This document shows positions 13,812-50,020 of a stretch of DNA of 50,078 nt, piece by piece; the first letter of the stretch is position 1; each line of letters begins with the position of its first letter. The notes beneath the pieces are model-generated. The model did no database searches. It had not been told where the DNA came from and saw nothing but the letters and a program-made list of their open reading frames with translations. The position numbers were made by a program, and so were the translations under genes. The stretch comes from an uncultured Dehalococcoidia bacterium (GTDB taxonomy: Bacteria; Chloroflexota; Dehalococcoidia; UBA2247; RBG-13-53-26): assembly GCA_964617695.1 (NCBI GenBank), contig CAZTYW010000007.1:1-50078 (forward strand), in the 5' to 3' direction.

Positions 13812-15722
13812 CTATCGACTGACCTTGGTGCCTACTGCCGGAGGCGCCGGCACAGGCTCGCCTGAGACCTTCACCACGGCATCAAAGCGAGGCGGACACA
13901 CATCAAAACACACGCCGCATTTGGTGCATTTCTCCTGGTCAATCCAGTGAATCAGGCCCTTGTCCCCATTCACTGCACCTGCAGGGCAATTCCTCAAACA
14001 GATAAGACAGGCCTTGCATTTCTCAGCATCAATATAGTAAGAGGTGAGATTCTTGCAGAACCTGGCCGGGCAGCGCTGCTCAATTATGTGAGCTTGGTAC
14101 TCATCCCTGAAATACTTCAGAGTCGTCAGGACGGGGTTGGCAGCCGTGCTCCCCAGAGCACAAAGCGCTGCATCAGCCAGTACCTCGGCTACCTCCTCGA
14201 TCACATCGATGTCCTCCGGCCTCCCCTCCCCGTTGCAGATGTCAGTCAGAACCTTCTGCAGCAGCCGCAGCCCTTCTCGGCAGGGTATGCATTTACCACA
14301 GGACTCTCCGCAGAGGAAATCAATGAAGTACCTGGCCACGTCCACCATGCACGTATCTTCATCCATAACCACCATGCCGCCGGACCCCATCATTGATCCA
14401 AGGTCGGTCAAAGCGTCGAAGTCAACCGGCGTGTCCAGACACTGCGCCGGAATTATGCCACCCGAGGGGCCACCGGTCTGGACTCCCTTGAACTCCTTGC
14501 CCTTGAGTATGCCACCGCCGATGTCGTAGATTATCTGCCTCAAGGTCATACCCATAGGCACTTCCACAAGTCCGGTGTTATTCACCTTGCCCACCAGGGA
14601 GAAGATCTTGGTCCCTTTGCTCCCCTCCGTCCCTGTGGACCGGAACCAGTCGGCTCCTCTGTCTATGATGAGCGGAACAGTGGCGTAGGTCTCTACGTTG
14701 TTAAGGTTGGTGGGTCTTCCCTTTATCCCGCTTACAGCGGTGTGTACGTACTTGAGCCTCGGCTCACCCACCCTGCCTTCGATGGCAGCCATCAAAGCGC
14801 TCGATTCTCCGGAGACAAATGCTCCTGCCCCGCGGTGAACTGTCACTGCGAAATTGAACCCAGAACCGAGGATACTCTCGCCAAGAAGCCCGTGCTCTTC
14901 AGCCTGCTTCAGGGCAACATTCAGGTTCTCGCAGGCGAGAGGATACTCCTGACGCACGTAGACAAACCCTTTGTTGGCCCCGATAGCATAACCACTGAGC
15001 ATGAGACCCTCAATAACGCCGTGGGGGTTGCCCTCCATCAGAGACCTGTCCATGTAGGCGCCTGGGTCGCCTTCGTCGCAGTTGACCACCACATACCGGG
15101 GCCCGTTGGGCGCACTTCTGGTCTCCTCCCACTTCCTCCCAGCCGGGAAGCCTCCGCCACCTCTGCCTCTCAGGTCCGCCTCGTTGACTTGCGCCAGTAC
15201 TTCATCTGGGCTCATCCTGGTCAGGGCCTTGGCCAGAGCATTGTACCCGCCAAGGGCGATGTAGTCCTCGATACTCTTGGGGTCTATGAGCTTGTTATTG
15301 CCGAACACTATCCGGCTCTGATGCGCATAGAACGGGATGTCCGATTCTTTGGCTATCTTGTTGCCCGTCACCGGATCGACGTATAGCAGGCGCTCGATAA
15401 TGTCATTGTTGGCCACCGCCTTCACCAACTCCGGAGCGTCCTCAGGCTTCACCTTGACATAGGAGATCTCCTCGGGAAAGACAACCACCACCACACCCTT
15501 TTCGCAGAACCCGTGGCAGCCGCTGGCCCTGGCAGCCACCCTGTCCCCCAACCCCTGGGCCTCGATCTGCTGCACAACCGCGGCAAAAACGCTCCGAGCG
15601 CCGTAGGTCTGGCAACCAGTCCCTGAACACACCACTATGGTCAGTCGGTTTGGGTCCCTCCGGGCCAGTATCTCCGCCCTCAGCTTCTCCAGCTCCTCAG
15701 CCGACGCGAGTCTATTCGCCAT
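13812..15722 (-). CDS. NADH/FMN-binding HydB/NuoF-like subunit (copy 1)
   Basis: CSGTGC..GCHGFC N-domain, LRGRGGGGFP, NCDEGDPGAYMDR, GGPSGG, ESCGKCIPCREG, C-terminal 2x[4Fe-4S]; start at ATG 15722 after AAGGAGG. Confidence 0.92.
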   Translation of the reverse strand: MANRLASAEELEKLRAEILARRDPNRLTIVVCSGTGCQTYGARSVFAAVVQQIEAQGLGDRVAARASGCHGFCEKGVVVVVFPEEISYVKVKPEDAPELVKAVANNDIIERLLYVDPVTGNKIAKESDIPFYAHQSRIVFGNNKLIDPKSIEDYIALGGYNALAKALTRMSPDEVLAQVNEADLRGRGGGGFPAGRKWEETRSAPNGPRYVVVNCDEGDPGAYMDRSLMEGNPHGVIEGLMLSGYAIGANKGFVYVRQEYPLACENLNVALKQAEEHGLLGESILGSGFNFAVTVHRGAGAFVSGESSALMAAIEGRVGEPRLKYVHTAVSGIKGRPTNLNNVETYATVPLIIDRGADWFRSTGTEGSKGTKIFSLVGKVNNTGLVEVPMGMTLRQIIYDIGGGILKGKEFKGVQTGGPSGGIIPAQCLDTPVDFDALTDLGSMMGSGGMVVMDEDTCMVDVARYFIDFLCGESCGKCIPCREGLRLLQKVLTDICNGEGRPEDIDVIEEVAEVLADAALCALGSTAANPVLTTLKYFRDEYQAHIIEQRCPARFCKNLTSYYIDAEKCKACLICLRNCPAGAVNGDKGLIHWIDQEKCTKCGVCFDVCPPRFDAVVKVSGEPVPAPPAVGTKVSR

Positions 15723-48346: not shown

Positions 48347-48402
48347 AATTATCCGTCAATTAACCCATAATTCACCGTCGATTAACCCCTGCGTGCTATG
48401 AT
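48347..48402 (+). promoter_or_regulatory. Four 11-bp direct repeats abutting an extended -10 (activator-dependent promoter)
   Basis: AATTATCCGTC AATTAACCCAT AATTCACCGTC GATTAACCCCT followed by GCGTGC TATGAT. Confidence 0.65.
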
Positions 48403-48535
48403 CCATGAAAGGCAGAGAGGACTCAGCCCGGTGGTGCGCGCGGGTCGCCGGGAGGTGGCTATTGCCACGTGAGCAGTCTCCTCCCTGCCCGGCCGGCGGT
48501 TCCGGCAACAGCCTCAGGGAAGGGGGTTAGCGGAC

Positions 48536-50020
48536 ATGACTGGGAAGACTCGCAGCAGGAGAAGCCAGCCAAAGCACCCTGAGCAGGGTTCACAGGCCCG
48601 CGGCAGGCGCGGTCCGGAGGTGCGGACAGCGAACACAGTCGATCCGGCCGAGGCGCTGCGGCGCACCGCTGCAGCCCCGCTGTCGGCTGCGGGGCCCGAG
48701 TCCATCCTGGCGCTCCAGCAGGCCGTCGGCAACCGGGCGGTGCAAAGGCTAATTGCCCAGAAGCGAGGTGACGGCCGGCCGTCATGGCGCCCGGCCAACC
48801 CTGGCGTTGCACCGCAGACGACAGCACCACCTGGCATCCAGCGGGAACCGGACAACGGCAAGCCCAAGGGGTCTTCGGCTCAGGGGAGCCTCACACCGGA
48901 GGTCATGAAGGAGCTGAAGGAGAAGATAAACAAGCAGGTCAAGCAGGGCCCTGTGCCCCAGTTACCTTCAGACAGCCAGATAAATGAGACCAAGAAAGAG
49001 GCAGAGGCACAGGGGAAAGAGATAGCGCCGCTGGTGAAGAACAACCCGGCCATGGCGGCCTTCGTGCACGCCAACATGACCAAGGGGGCTCCCTCTGGAG
49101 GTTCACCACCGCCCCCGCCGTCCCCGGCACAGGCTCAGGCCCAGGCGGGGGCCGTAGCGGGCACGGCCCCTAAGACCCAGCAGCCGCAGCAGGGGTCTGC
49201 GGGTGCCGCAGGGGGCAAGAAGAAGAAGTCCTACGTTGGCAAGAAGAAGCGCAGGGCGGGGCACAAGGAGCGCGCCGGGCTGGCCGGGGAGCTTGGCGAC
49301 GTGGGCCAGCAGGCAACCGGGACCGGCCTGGACATTGCCGAGGGAGTGGTCAAGGCGGGGGGCGGGGTGTTAAAGGGAGCCGCAGACGTGGCGGGCAAGG
49401 TCTTCGGGTGGATAGGCGTGGCCTTCGGGTTTATCATGGCGGCTTTCGACATCAGGGCCATAGCCTCATCGGCCGCCAAGGTGAAGGACCTGAAGGACGT
49501 GCTGACAGACGTACGGGCCAAGGCCAAGCCGGGTAACGCCCAGGAGCAGGAGCTCCTGGGAGCCGTTGAGTACGCCATCGAGCAGAAGTACAAGAAGATC
49601 GCCCGCAGGGCGGTGTCCCTTGGGGCCACATTGACGTCCACCGGAGTCGGCGTTGCTGCTCTGGCTGCCGGCGTGGCCATCCTGGCGCTGGCTTCCAACC
49701 CGGTTGGCTGGCTGGTAGCGGCCGGCATCCTGGGGCTTGCCACGCTTGTCGGGCTGGGAATGCTGTTCTACAAGATCGGTCGCGCCATCTTCAAGTGGGC
49801 GAAGGGCAGGAAGGGCAAGGTCAGGGGGGAGATGGCCGAGAAGCTATACGACAATGCTGCCCATGGGGAGATGAAGGGTCTGGCGCAGCGGGCCATAAAG
49901 AGCCTGGGCCTCAACTGGGCCAAGATGAAAAAGTCGTACGAAGGCGCGCCGAAGCCGGCCAGGCCGAAGGTCAGGAAGAGCGCCATCGGCCTCATCAAGG
50001 GCAAGCTGGCCAGCTCGTAG
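48536..50020 (+). CDS. Hypothetical protein with an eCIS/DUF4157-associated leader motif and C-terminal hydrophobic hairpin (putative toxin cargo)
   Basis: ILALQQAVGNRAVQRL and IQR motifs, Pro/Gln/Ala linker, hydrophobic helices around ASNPVGW, Lys-rich tail. Confidence 0.6.
   Translation: MTGKTRSRRSQPKHPEQGSQARGRRGPEVRTANTVDPAEALRRTAAAPLSAAGPESILALQQAVGNRAVQRLIAQKRGDGRPSWRPANPGVAPQTTAPPGIQREPDNGKPKGSSAQGSLTPEVMKELKEKINKQVKQGPVPQLPSDSQINETKKEAEAQGKEIAPLVKNNPAMAAFVHANMTKGAPSGGSPPPPPSPAQAQAQAGAVAGTAPKTQQPQQGSAGAAGGKKKKSYVGKKKRRAGHKERAGLAGELGDVGQQATGTGLDIAEGVVKAGGGVLKGAADVAGKVFGWIGVAFGFIMAAFDIRAIASSAAKVKDLKDVLTDVRAKAKPGNAQEQELLGAVEYAIEQKYKKIARRAVSLGATLTSTGVGVAALAAGVAILALASNPVGWLVAAGILGLATLVGLGMLFYKIGRAIFKWAKGRKGKVRGEMAEKLYDNAAHGEMKGLAQRAIKSLGLNWAKMKKSYEGAPKPARPKVRKSAIGLIKGKLASS

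What the first reader, a model, noticed from the sequence alone, without database searches (positions are those of the whole stretch)
48536..50020. Orphan contractile-injection-system-type cargo with a pore-forming-like C-terminus in an anaerobic Chloroflexota-like genome
Seen: a disordered basic N-terminus with ILALQQAVGNRAVQRL and a downstream IQR, a Pro/Gln linker, then Gly/Ala-rich helices, a TM-like VFGWIGVAFGFIMAAF, a coiled segment and a ~50-aa hydrophobic hairpin centred on ASNPVGW. There is no Sec signal, and the gene has its own promoter and terminator. Recalled family knowledge: LQxxxGNxAV and (I/V)QR motifs typify DUF4157/eCIS-associated proteins, and NPVGW-type hairpins occur in alpha-pore-forming toxins and translocators. 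No HExxH DUF4157 core or eCIS structural gene is in the window. Inference: a stand-alone toxin loaded in trans via the leader motif, implying an undescribed antagonism system. No immunity gene is visible, but the window ends right after the terminator.
Basis: partly seen in the sequence, partly recalled or inferred. Interest (0 to 1): 0.72.

Follow-up and report, generated by a model that had tools for sequence, protein, structure and literature searches.

The report
Orphan cargo gene of injection system
This gene most likely encodes a membrane-inserting protein that is loaded into a phage-tail-like injection machine encoded elsewhere in the same genome, and it shares that machine's genetic on-switch, which shows how such scattered cargo genes can be recognised.

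Summary
No curated family reaches its cut-off. The genome does hold a contractile injection system (CIS) locus, on contig C29. Its eCIS_core/DUF4157 protein carries the same ~40-aa N-terminal leader; these are the only two convincing leader-bearing ORFs in the bin. The C-terminal module defines an unannotated family (147 cluster representatives). The only Pfam domain found with it is eCIS_core (9 of 64). Relatives carry leader+DUF4157+module inside CIS loci. All 10 tested genomes with a member have the CIS tube marker (phylum base rate 88 of 401); in Streptomyces, 27 of 28 against 170 of 273. New here: four heptamers at 11-bp period, then 9 nt and a -10-like hexamer, occur exactly twice in the genome, upstream of this gene and between the CIS locus's BTAD regulator and its ATPase. 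The closest relative's genome has four such sites: its CIS locus, its orphan homolog, and two further genes that both carry the leader. Best reading: a trans-encoded, co-regulated CIS cargo with a membrane-inserting helical hairpin. Pore formation is unproven, since no specific fold match was found. It is not a new system.

The parts
48348..48387 (+). Operator-like array: four heptamers at 11-bp period (ATTATCC, ATTAACC, ATTCACC, ATTAACC), the layout of a SARP/BTAD activator site
   Evidence: (TRF period 22, 1.9 copies). Only two such arrays in the 1.95-Mb bin; the other is in the CIS locus on C29.
48397..48402 (+). -10-like hexamer TATGAT, 9 nt after the last heptamer
   Evidence: Read from sequence. 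Same 9-nt spacing and TAnnnT hexamer at all six arrays in two genomes.
48517..48526 (+). Purine-rich ribosome-binding stretch GGGAAGGGGG
   Evidence: The same 10-mer recurs in C29 intergenic regions, not above shuffles.
48536..50020 (+). CDS, 494 aa (P0001), stop included
48647..48763 (+). Bipartite N-terminal leader, residues 38-76 (AEALRRTAAAPLSAAGPESILALQQAVGNRAVQRLIAQK)
   Evidence: Aligns with the N-terminal element of eCIS_core proteins; L, Q, G, N invariant in 26 sequences. 11 of 25 leader-only hits carry eCIS_core.
48836..48844 (+). IQR motif (residues 101-103)
   Evidence: Q102 and R103 invariant in 5 homologs
48887..49090 (+). Conserved helical middle region, residues 118-185
   Evidence: Conserved in P0002-P0005, and after the DUF4157 domain in P0004; helices H121-137, H146-169, H171-182 at low confidence
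49091..49285 (+). Low-complexity Pro/Gln/Ala/Gly linker ending in a basic cluster (residues 229-250, net +9)
   Evidence: (pLDDT < 50); in-frame TCC insertion after 49180 in a strain variant
49286..50017 (+). C-terminal module, residues 251-494: three long helices with one hydrophobic end, then four short helices; conserved ...KLASS end
   Evidence: AF2 on 64 sequences, mean pLDDT 79.9, pTM 0.71; family profile
49388..49444 (+). Hydrophobic segment 1, residues 285-303
   Evidence: KD 1.72
49619..49771 (+). Hydrophobic helical hairpin, residues 362-412, turn ASNPVGW (49691-49711)
   Evidence: of 46 members with the turn motif, 40 have both arms at KD >= 1.4; median net charge +6.5 in the next 25 residues
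50050..50077 (+). Terminator-like hairpin and T-run; the window ends here
   Evidence: weak: 3 sites found, 1.8 expected

Best explanation
The gene encodes a trans-encoded ('orphan') cargo protein of the contractile injection system whose locus lies on contig C29 of the same genome. Shown: (1) its ~40-aa N-terminal leader is homologous to the N-terminal element of eCIS_core/DUF4157 proteins, including the one in the C29 locus; (2) its C-terminal module occurs in relatives fused behind leader+DUF4157 inside CIS loci; (3) genomes with the family have a CIS; (4) its promoter carries the same four-heptamer, 11-bp-period array, 9-nt gap and -10-like hexamer as the promoter between the CIS locus's BTAD regulator and its first structural genes. 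Inferred: the BTAD (SARP-like) regulator switches on the machine and this gene together. The disordered leader directs the protein to the particle, either directly or through the short DUF4157 protein P0006. After firing, the C-terminal module inserts into a membrane through its Gly/Ala-rich three-helix hydrophobic end. What happens in the membrane is the least certain step: permeabilisation or depolarisation (about 0.4), or a non-lytic membrane-localised effect as reported for Sle1-C. Whether the target is another cell or the producer's own membrane (cytoplasmic CIS mode) is open.
For: CIS locus on C29: BTAD regulator, WHD-AAA ATPase, eCIS_core, Pvc16_N, sheath, tube, chaperone-like 122 aa, tube. 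Leader: a loose regex over 20,876 six-frame ORFs gave 10 matches, of which two are convincing, this gene and the C29 eCIS_core protein. Of 25 profile hits that match only the leader region, 11 carry eCIS_core, and 11 of the other 14 are fragments of 108-174 aa. Family: 147 representatives at E <= 1e-3 and 64 at <= 1e-10; eCIS_core is the only co-occurring Pfam family, in 9 of 64. Fused forms: P0004, L012 1158 aa after three other eCIS_core genes, G255 841 aa directly after the CIS ATPase (hhalign 93.4%, E 2.4e-7), G516 696 aa between ATPase and sheath. Co-occurrence: 10 of 10 genomes with a member have PF06841 against 88 of 401 in the phylum sample. In Streptomyces, 27 of 28 against 170 of 273, odds ratio 16, Fisher p 6e-5; relatedness inflates this. 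Operator: a pattern taken from this gene's site alone gives 2 sites genome-wide, expected 3.4e-4, and 0 of 200 shuffles gave any. G401 has 4 sites: its CIS locus, its orphan homolog, and two more genes that both carry the leader. Literature (passages read): the AlgoCIS NTD is required for loading and DUF4157 is dispensable; Sle1 is a DUF4157-less cargo with a TM hairpin and a small DUF4157 partner; SARP sites are heptameric direct repeats in 11-bp units overlapping -35. Complex of P0006 (22-346) with P0001 (1-250): weak support only. Score 0.32, best of 3 controls 0.00. The mark was reached by 116 of 157 solved complexes and 2 of 215 mismatched pairs, but at 0.60 or under by only 18 of the 157 and by both mismatches that passed. 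Runs agree in at least 94% of contacts; partner pLDDT at least 78.
Against: Nothing here is experimental. No fold or sequence match supports pore formation. The baseplate/spike half of the CIS was not found in this 89.5%-complete bin, so an intact machine is not shown. Regulator-operator binding is inferred from layout. The array was found only in this genome and its closest relative: 0 sites at <= 1 mismatch in 9 other related loci. No conserved neighbouring (immunity) gene appears in relatives, and the window ends 58 nt after the stop. The NPVGW hairpin motif also occurs in proteins with no CIS link, such as a dynamin-family protein. Both flanks of the hydrophobic region are strongly basic, which fits no simple topology. 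The complex prediction is weak.
Confidence: 0.7

Rival explanations
1. It is cargo, but not a pore-former. Like Sle1-C of Streptomyces lividans, the module sits in or on a membrane and modulates physiology (transient growth slowing, altered membrane-protein load) without lysis.
For: Sle1 shares the layout: no DUF4157, helical, predicted TM hairpin, small DUF4157 partner. Sle1-C only partly and transiently suppressed E. coli growth (passages). No immunity gene is conserved next to family members. No pore-former fold match.
Against: Homology to Sle1-C was not tested, as no sequence was on hand. This protein lacks Sle1's long N-terminal coiled coil. Only 1 verifiable Streptomyces member (G516) sits in the Sle1/Sle2 slot.
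Confidence: 0.25
2. It is not cargo but a resident membrane adaptor or trigger, a functional analogue of Streptomyces CisA. The hairpin anchors it in the producer's membrane, and the long disordered N-terminus with the leader captures the CIS and allows firing.
For: CisA has a long unstructured cytoplasmic N-terminus, a TM segment and a C-terminal domain, and is needed for firing. Chloroflexota CIS resemble the cytoplasmic Streptomyces CIS but lack close cisA homologues. This protein is co-regulated with the CIS.
Against: The family is accessory. In the phylum sample only 2 of the 88 tube-positive genomes match through the C-terminal module, and 28 of 301 Streptomyces have it while 197 have the tube. 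The leader is shared with DUF4157 proteins that have many different C-termini, and the other two operator-controlled genes in G401 have unrelated C-termini; that is the pattern of interchangeable cargo. CisA is bitopic with a periplasmic substrate-binding-like domain, whereas this protein has three hydrophobic segments and an all-helical, very basic C-terminus.
Confidence: 0.1
3. An ordinary membrane protein unrelated to the CIS; leader and operator similarities are coincidental.
For: No curated family. Housekeeping neighbours: proA-like, HIT-like, enoyl-CoA hydratase-like and thiolase-like ORFs by my reading of the translations. The hairpin motif occurs in unrelated proteins.
Against: Four independent links (leader, fusions, co-occurrence, operator), each well beyond chance.
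Confidence: 0.03

Closest known systems
eCIS cargo with N-terminal loading sequence and optional DUF4157 (AlgoCIS Cgo1/Cgo2; 'EATs' of Geller 2021 and Danov 2024)
   Same: Disordered N-terminal region, variable C-terminal effector domain, DUF4157 optional; the NTD, not DUF4157, is needed for loading (passages). DUF4157 sits in the protein or in a nearby gene.
   Different: No DUF4157 in the protein. The gene is on another contig than the CIS, whereas 88% of known EATs lie within ten genes of the operon. The leader here is a conserved sequence motif, whereas the preprint reports that loading sequences are not conserved between systems. The C-terminal family is unannotated.
Sle1/Sle2 of the Streptomyces lividans phage-tail-like particle (PMC13277306)
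   Same: A DUF4157-less helical cargo with a predicted TM helical hairpin, plus a small DUF4157 protein beside the sheath genes. Here that pair would be P0001 plus P0006. In G516 a fused DUF4157-coiled coil-module protein occupies the same slot.
   Different: Sle1 has a 440-aa N-terminal coiled coil with remote tape-measure homology and is adjacent to Sle2. P0001 has a disordered leader instead, no PHROG hit and is unlinked. Sequence homology was not tested.
Tme of Streptomyces davawensis CIS (PMC11126660)
   Same: A DUF4157-associated effector with predicted TM helices, coiled coils and about 70% disorder.
   Different: Tme is very large, carries DUF4157 and a C-terminal nuclease, and lies in the tape-measure position.
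CisA, membrane protein required for firing of the S. coelicolor CIS (PMC12237407)
   Same: Long disordered N-terminus followed by membrane segment(s) and a C-terminal domain.
   Different: CisA is bitopic with a periplasmic substrate-binding-like domain and is conserved with the cluster. This family is accessory and all-helical.
Alpha-helical pore formers and translocators (AhlC, MakA, IpaB; RTX hydrophobic domain)
   Same: Long helices with a hydrophobic hairpin. AhlC Z 7.9 (rmsd 4.2, 112 aligned) and IpaB Z 7.6 (rmsd 2.4, 100 aligned). Atlas feature score 0.88 to an RTX N-terminal cluster.
   Different: All of these lie within the tools' stated noise. MakA scored 10.7 against a cut-off of 320 bits. 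PF02382 was not listed even at E <= 10.
SARP-type activator sites (review PMC10972967)
   Same: Heptameric direct repeats with 4-nt spacers (11-bp units) overlapping -35. The regulator has BTAD plus a weak OmpR-type Trans_reg_C match.
   Different: Found in Chloroflexota rather than Streptomyces; four units; it controls a CIS and scattered cargo genes, not an antibiotic cluster. Binding was not tested.

Membership tests
eCIS_core / DUF4157 (PF13699) protein | The ~79-residue HExxH-containing core domain | tested here: not met
   No PF13699 hit even at E <= 10; no HExxH in P0001
CIS cargo with N-terminal loading sequence | Disordered N-terminal region | tested here: met
   AF2 pLDDT < 50 for residues 1-41 and 76-120; hydrophilic, basic
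CIS cargo with N-terminal loading sequence | N-terminus related to that of known-type cargo (DUF4157 proteins) of the same system | tested here: met
   Shared bipartite leader with the C29 eCIS_core protein; 11 of 25 leader-only hits are eCIS_core proteins
CIS cargo with N-terminal loading sequence | A CIS encoded in the same genome | tested here: met
   C29 locus; the baseplate half was not found in the 89.5%-complete bin
CIS cargo with N-terminal loading sequence | Physical presence in the particle, dependent on the leader | not testable with these tools
   Needs particle purification and mass spectrometry
Sle1-type effector | Lacks DUF4157 and has a C-terminal TM helical hairpin | tested here: met
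   (prediction only)
Sle1-type effector | Large N-terminal coiled coil with remote tape-measure homology | tested here: not met
   The N-terminal half is mostly disordered; no PHROG match
Sle1-type effector | Adjacent to a small DUF4157 gene and the sheath gene | tested here: not met
   The gene is on C7 and the CIS on C29; no contig-end overlap
Sle1-type effector | Sequence homology to Sle1 | not tested
   No Sle1 sequence was available through the tools
CisA-type adaptor | Single TM plus periplasmic substrate-binding-like domain; conserved with the CIS cluster | tested here: not met
   Three hydrophobic segments and an all-helical C-terminus; the module matched in 2 of 88 tube-positive phylum genomes
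Alpha-pore-forming toxin (ClyA/AhlC/MakA kind) | Fold or sequence similarity to a solved member | tested here: inconclusive
   Foldseek: 0 at E <= 0.001; VIA best Z 9.3, AhlC 7.9, within helical noise; MakA 10.7 against 320 bits
SARP-controlled promoter | Heptameric direct repeats in 11-bp units overlapping -35 | tested here: met
   definition from PMC10972967
SARP-controlled promoter | Bound and activated by the BTAD regulator | not testable with these tools
   Needs EMSA, footprinting or a reporter assay

The most novel reading that the evidence does not exclude
In these Chloroflexota the CIS is of the cytoplasmic, self-directed kind, and this family is its membrane-breaching death or lysis effector. 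A SARP-like switch turns on the machine together with a set of scattered, leader-tagged cargo genes, and this one is fired into the producer's own membrane. That would supply the membrane step for which CisA is needed in Streptomyces and which is unexplained in Chloroflexota. 'Operator plus leader' would then be a two-part code that reads out the whole cargo set of such systems from sequence alone.
Probability: 0.2. Interest if true: 0.8.

Novelty: new member of a known kind. Interest (0 to 1): 0.62.

Why it matters
Most CIS cargo is unknown, and current predictors lean on closeness to the operon or on DUF4157. This case shows a cargo candidate that has neither. It is recognisable by two independent marks: a conserved ~40-aa leader, and a shared activator site that also picked out two further leader-bearing genes in a blind test in a relative. 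It adds an unannotated membrane-hairpin module family spanning Chloroflexota and Actinomycetota, found in 28 of 301 sampled Streptomyces genomes. That makes it testable in genetically tractable strains. The split and fused forms bear on what DUF4157 does.

Tried and rejected
- Foldseek against PDB: 0 matches at E <= 0.001, best 0.21.
- VIA wide search: only generic helical hairpins, best Z 9.3.
- Family profile against PDB sequences: best hit a designed coiled coil, E 0.002.
- PHROGs: nothing for P0001, P0006 or P0151.
- Atlas: RTX N-terminal cluster at 0.88 with 155 shared features, below the tool's marks. Lead only.
- First AF2 run on 5 sequences: mean pLDDT 48, not used for fold search.
- Contig-end overlap of C7 or C29 with any contig: none at k = 21-127.
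- Shared k-mers between the gene's upstream region and C29 intergenic regions: not above shuffles. The operator was found through periodicity instead.
- Generic sigma-70 scan: no promoter upstream of the gene.
- Expression: no RNA holder listed. The DNA runs only showed strain variants and one 480-nt contig running past the window end.
- WXG100/type VII idea for the Oerskovia and Cellulosimicrobium hairpin proteins: WXG100 below cut-off (19.5-21.4 against 27.3 bits) and not detected in L019. No T7SS families in the ORFs scanned around L019 and L020.
- Phylum-wide 2x2 table: the family was too rare, with 2 module matches in 401 genomes.
- Motif spellings in the literature (GNRAV, GNQAV, LQRTVGN, LQRxxGN, GNxAV, LQxxxGN): 219 papers held at least one term. 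None of the 15 listed concerns CIS; I did not see the other 204.
- Earlier notes of this scan: nothing shown.
Full report
OBSERVATION. The ORF is as described: 48536..50020 on the + strand, 494 aa, ATG start. All listed motifs are present. The first 60 residues are hydrophilic and basic, with no Sec-like hydrophobic core. Three segments pass a Kyte-Doolittle threshold of 1.6 over 19 residues: 285-303, 368-386 and 393-411. The last two flank ASNPVGW. Pfam and NCBIfam give nothing over cut-off; the best Pfam E-value is 0.087, and MakA scores 10.7 bits against a cut-off of 320. The gene is GC-richer (65.9%) than the genome (58.5%).

THE GENOME HAS A CIS. The window is contig C7 of a 95-contig, 1.95-Mb bin rated 89.5% complete. 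Own-genome searches place eCIS_core, sheath and two tube genes on contig C29. Pfam on the C29 ORFs gives, in order:
- a BTAD regulator with a weak Trans_reg_C match,
- a WHD-AAA ATPase,
- an eCIS_core protein (P0006),
- Pvc16_N,
- sheath,
- tube,
- a 122-aa ORF that weakly matches a tail assembly chaperone,
- a second tube,
- an ORF that runs off the contig end.

Baseplate_J, gp25 and Phage_base_V were not found in the bin, so the locus is cut, and an intact machine is not shown. The sheath's closest relatives are Dehalococcoidia MAGs (70-79% identity). Next come other Chloroflexota, including Roseiflexus (55-56%), and then Actinomycetota such as Frankia (53%). [quoted passage not shown]

THE LEADER. 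P0006 carries GLQQSYGNAYVQRLL. A loose regex over 20,876 six-frame ORFs gave 10 matches. Only this gene and P0006 look real. The exhaustive profile search returned 147 representatives at E <= 1e-3. Twenty-five of them match only the N-terminal region, and 11 of those carry eCIS_core. Of the other 14, 11 are fragments of 108-174 aa. Their alignment shows a bipartite element of about 40 aa (A.ALQR...AP...P.DIL.LQ..VGNRAVQRLLA) with L, Q, G and N invariant in 26 sequences. P0001 residues 38-76 match it throughout. In stored proteins with a leader in the first 130 residues, the motif starts at a median of residue 54.

THE C-TERMINAL MODULE. Sixty-four representatives score E <= 1e-10, nearly all through the C-terminal part. 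Among 64 sequences (this gene's C-terminal stretch plus 63 relatives), eCIS_core is the only Pfam family seen, in 9. By motif the 64 full-length proteins fall into these classes:

| Class | Count |
|---|---|
| Leader, no DUF4157 motif | 31 |
| Leader + DUF4157 + hairpin | 2 |
| DUF4157 + hairpin, no leader detected by regex | 5 |
| No leader, no DUF4157 motif (many are fragments) | 26 |

AlphaFold2 on this alignment gives mean pLDDT 79.9 and pTM 0.71. The model has three long helices (protein residues 279-329, 335-385, 389-423) followed by four short ones. Combined with the hydropathy, the antiparallel order puts all three hydrophobic segments at one end of the bundle. A polar helical hairpin (305-361) and a very basic C-terminal part lie at the other end. 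This arrangement is my inference from helix order, not from coordinates. Of 46 family members with the turn motif, 40 have both arms at KD >= 1.4, and the next 25 residues have a median net charge of +6.5. Fold searches found no specific relative, and neither did a profile search of PDB sequences.

FUSED AND SPLIT FORMS. Four relatives carry the module behind leader + DUF4157:
- P0004 has leader + DUF4157 + the same module.
- In an Ardenticatenaceae MAG, the module ends a 1158-aa eCIS_core protein that follows three other eCIS_core genes.
- In G255, a complete CIS locus in the same gene order as C29 has an 841-aa leader + eCIS_core + divergent module protein directly after the ATPase. hhalign to the family profile gives 93.4% probability, E 2.4e-7.
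- In Streptomyces G516, a 696-aa leader + DUF4157 + coiled coil + module protein lies between ATPase and sheath on the opposite strand. This is the slot described for Sle2/Sle1.

In the window's genome, and in its closest relative G401, that slot holds a short eCIS_core protein without the module (346 and 289 aa), and the module is encoded elsewhere with its own leader. A complex prediction for P0006 with the N-terminal half of P0001 gave weak support only. The score was 0.32 and the best of 3 controls 0.00. The mark was reached by 116 of 157 solved complexes and 2 of 215 mismatched pairs, but at 0.60 or under by only 18 of those 157 and by both mismatches that passed. The runs agree in at least 94% of contacts, and partner pLDDT is at least 78.

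CO-OCCURRENCE. Ten genomes with a member were tested: seven Chloroflexota, two Actinomycetota MAGs and one Streptomyces. All ten have the tube marker. The phylum sample has it in 88 of 401 genomes (one of the 88, G227, is flagged unpublished). In that sample four genomes hit the family profile, two through the module (G000, G255) and two through the N-terminal part. All four are tube-positive. In 301 Streptomyces genomes, 28 have the family and 197 have the tube (one, G540, is flagged unpublished). Of the 28 family-positive genomes 27 are tube-positive, against 170 of 273 without the family. The odds ratio is 16 and the one-sided Fisher p is 6e-5, or 9e-5 without the seed genome. Related genomes are not independent, so these p-values overstate the case. 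The family is accessory, not core.

SHARED OPERATOR (new). The six arrays, in two genomes:

| Site | Heptamers (11-bp period) | Gap | Hexamer |
|---|---|---|---|
| This gene, window 48348-48402 | ATTATCC, ATTAACC, ATTCACC, ATTAACC | 9 nt | TATGAT |
| C29, BTAD-ATPase intergenic, 15002-15056 | ATTCACT, ATTCACT, ATTATCC, GTTCACC | 9 nt | TATGCT |
| G401 CIS locus (L116, - strand) | ATTCACC, ATTCACC, ATTATCC, ATTCACC | 9 nt | TAACCT |
| G401 orphan homolog (L006) | TTTATCC, ATTACCT, ATTCACT, ATTCACT | 9 nt | TATGGT |
| G401 C32 (L117) | ATTCACC, ATTAACC, ATTCACC, ATTCACT | 9 nt | TATCAT |
| G401 C117 (L118) | TTTCACT, ATTCACC, ATTACCC, CTTCACC | 9 nt | TAACCT |

(Sequences.)

A pattern taken from this gene's site alone (ATT[AC][AT]CC, at most 1 mismatch per unit, four units at 11-bp period) has exactly two sites in the genome on both strands: this gene's upstream region and the C29 site. 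The chance expectation is 3.4e-4, and 0 of 200 block shuffles gave any site. The C29 protein is the only strong BTAD match in the bin.

In G401 the CIS locus has the same order: BTAD regulator, array, ATPase. Its array has 0 mismatches. The G401 orphan homolog has an array about 100 nt before its start codon, with up to 2 mismatches per unit. One degenerate pattern covering all four arrays finds 2 sites in G000 and 4 in G401; the reversed-pattern control finds 0 in both.

The two extra G401 sites were a blind test. Each lies directly upstream of an ORF that carries the leader: LLPILQKAYGNRYVNHLL (373 aa) and VSGLQRIYGNAYVQRVI (211+ aa, cut by the contig end). Their C-terminal parts are different and contain HExxH. 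All six arrays are followed by 9 nt and a TAnnnT hexamer. A SARP review (passages read) describes heptameric direct repeats overlapping -35 and 'classical 11-bp' units. Binding by the BTAD protein is inferred, not shown. The array was not found in nine other related loci at 1 mismatch or fewer, so it is specific to this lineage.

MECHANISM.
- Shown by computation: the leader homology, the fusions, the co-occurrence and the shared operator.
- Inferred: the regulator co-activates the machine and its cargo. The leader, perhaps with P0006 or the ATPase, brings the protein to the particle. In AlgoCIS the NTD is required for loading and DUF4157 is dispensable. The module then inserts into a membrane.
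- Open: whether it forms a pore (I put this at about 0.4) or acts like Sle1-C, which only slowed E. coli growth and partly localised to membranes.
- Also open: whether the target is foreign or the producer's own membrane.
- The adaptor (CisA-like) rival is weakened because the family is rare among CIS genomes, and because the leader and operator are shared with genes of unrelated C-termini.

NOVELTY. The kind is known: CIS cargo with an N-terminal loading region, optional DUF4157 and a variable C-terminal domain. Three things are new. The first is the module family, which has no Pfam, NCBIfam or PHROG model. The second is the conserved leader as a sequence mark. My six motif spellings returned 219 papers; none of the 15 listed concerns CIS, and I did not see the rest. 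The third is the operator that ties scattered cargo genes to the CIS locus. I did not search the literature specifically for CIS regulons, so I do not claim that this is not in print.

LIMITS. The bin is incomplete. The window ends 58 nt after the stop codon, so a downstream immunity gene cannot be excluded. In relatives the downstream gene is convergent in 5 of the 6 loci where it can be read (L006, L009, L011, L012, L013), and no neighbour is conserved. No RNA data were available.

Noticed in passing
G401:C32 (L117 1344-2465) and G401:C117 (L118 1251-1883): Two further leader-bearing ORFs behind the same heptamer operator in the closest relative's genome. Each has an HExxH later in the protein (HEVGH, HEINH) and no similarity to the module studied here. 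They are candidate additional orphan cargo.
   Followed up: partly
L019 9359-10318, L020 8696-10318, L021 9125-10312 (Oerskovia, Cellulosimicrobium): Proteins with a Gly/Pro linker and a C-terminal ALASNPVGW hydrophobic hairpin, and no CIS leader. L020 and L021 also have a weak WXG100-like N-terminal match (19.5-21.4 bits against a cut-off of 27.3); L019 has no such hit. This may be the same hairpin on a type VII-style carrier. No T7SS families were found in the ORFs scanned around L019 and L020.
   Followed up: partly
L022 1-1356 (Polaribacter MAG): A dynamin-family protein (Dynamin_N, DUF6448) carries the same IALASNPVGW hairpin motif, so the turn motif is not specific to CIS cargo.
   Followed up: no
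G000:C29 15123-15356 (L005 about 2123-2356): A small ORF of about 77 aa (MGHYSSFVIKIW...) lies between the operator and -10 and the ATPase gene, and would be the first gene of the CIS operon. I read it by eye from the sequence; it was not analysed.
   Followed up: no
L012 3-10516 (Ardenticatenaceae MAG): An array of four consecutive eCIS_core proteins (932+, 559, 595 and 1158 aa) away from any structural CIS gene in the 20-kb locus. Only the last ends in the module.
   Followed up: partly
window 48536-50020: The gene's GC content is 65.9% against 58.5% for the genome and 60.4% for the CIS part of C29. Gly/Ala/Pro richness may explain part of it; horizontal origin was not tested.
   Followed up: no
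window 49180: A strain variant in a second marine-sediment run has an in-frame TCC insertion in the Pro/Gln linker and about 33 substitutions over 1179 nt. A 480-nt contig of that run extends past the window's end.
   Followed up: partly
L007 9803-11062 (Ca. Amarobacillus MAG): The family member's open frame lacks the leader that its near-identical relative P0005 has. This may be a frameshift in a long-read assembly or a real truncation.
   Followed up: no
G000:C49 12576-15098: A 1213-aa frame gives five weak BTAD matches (21-25 bits), probably TPR-like repeats rather than a second SARP-type regulator.
   Followed up: no
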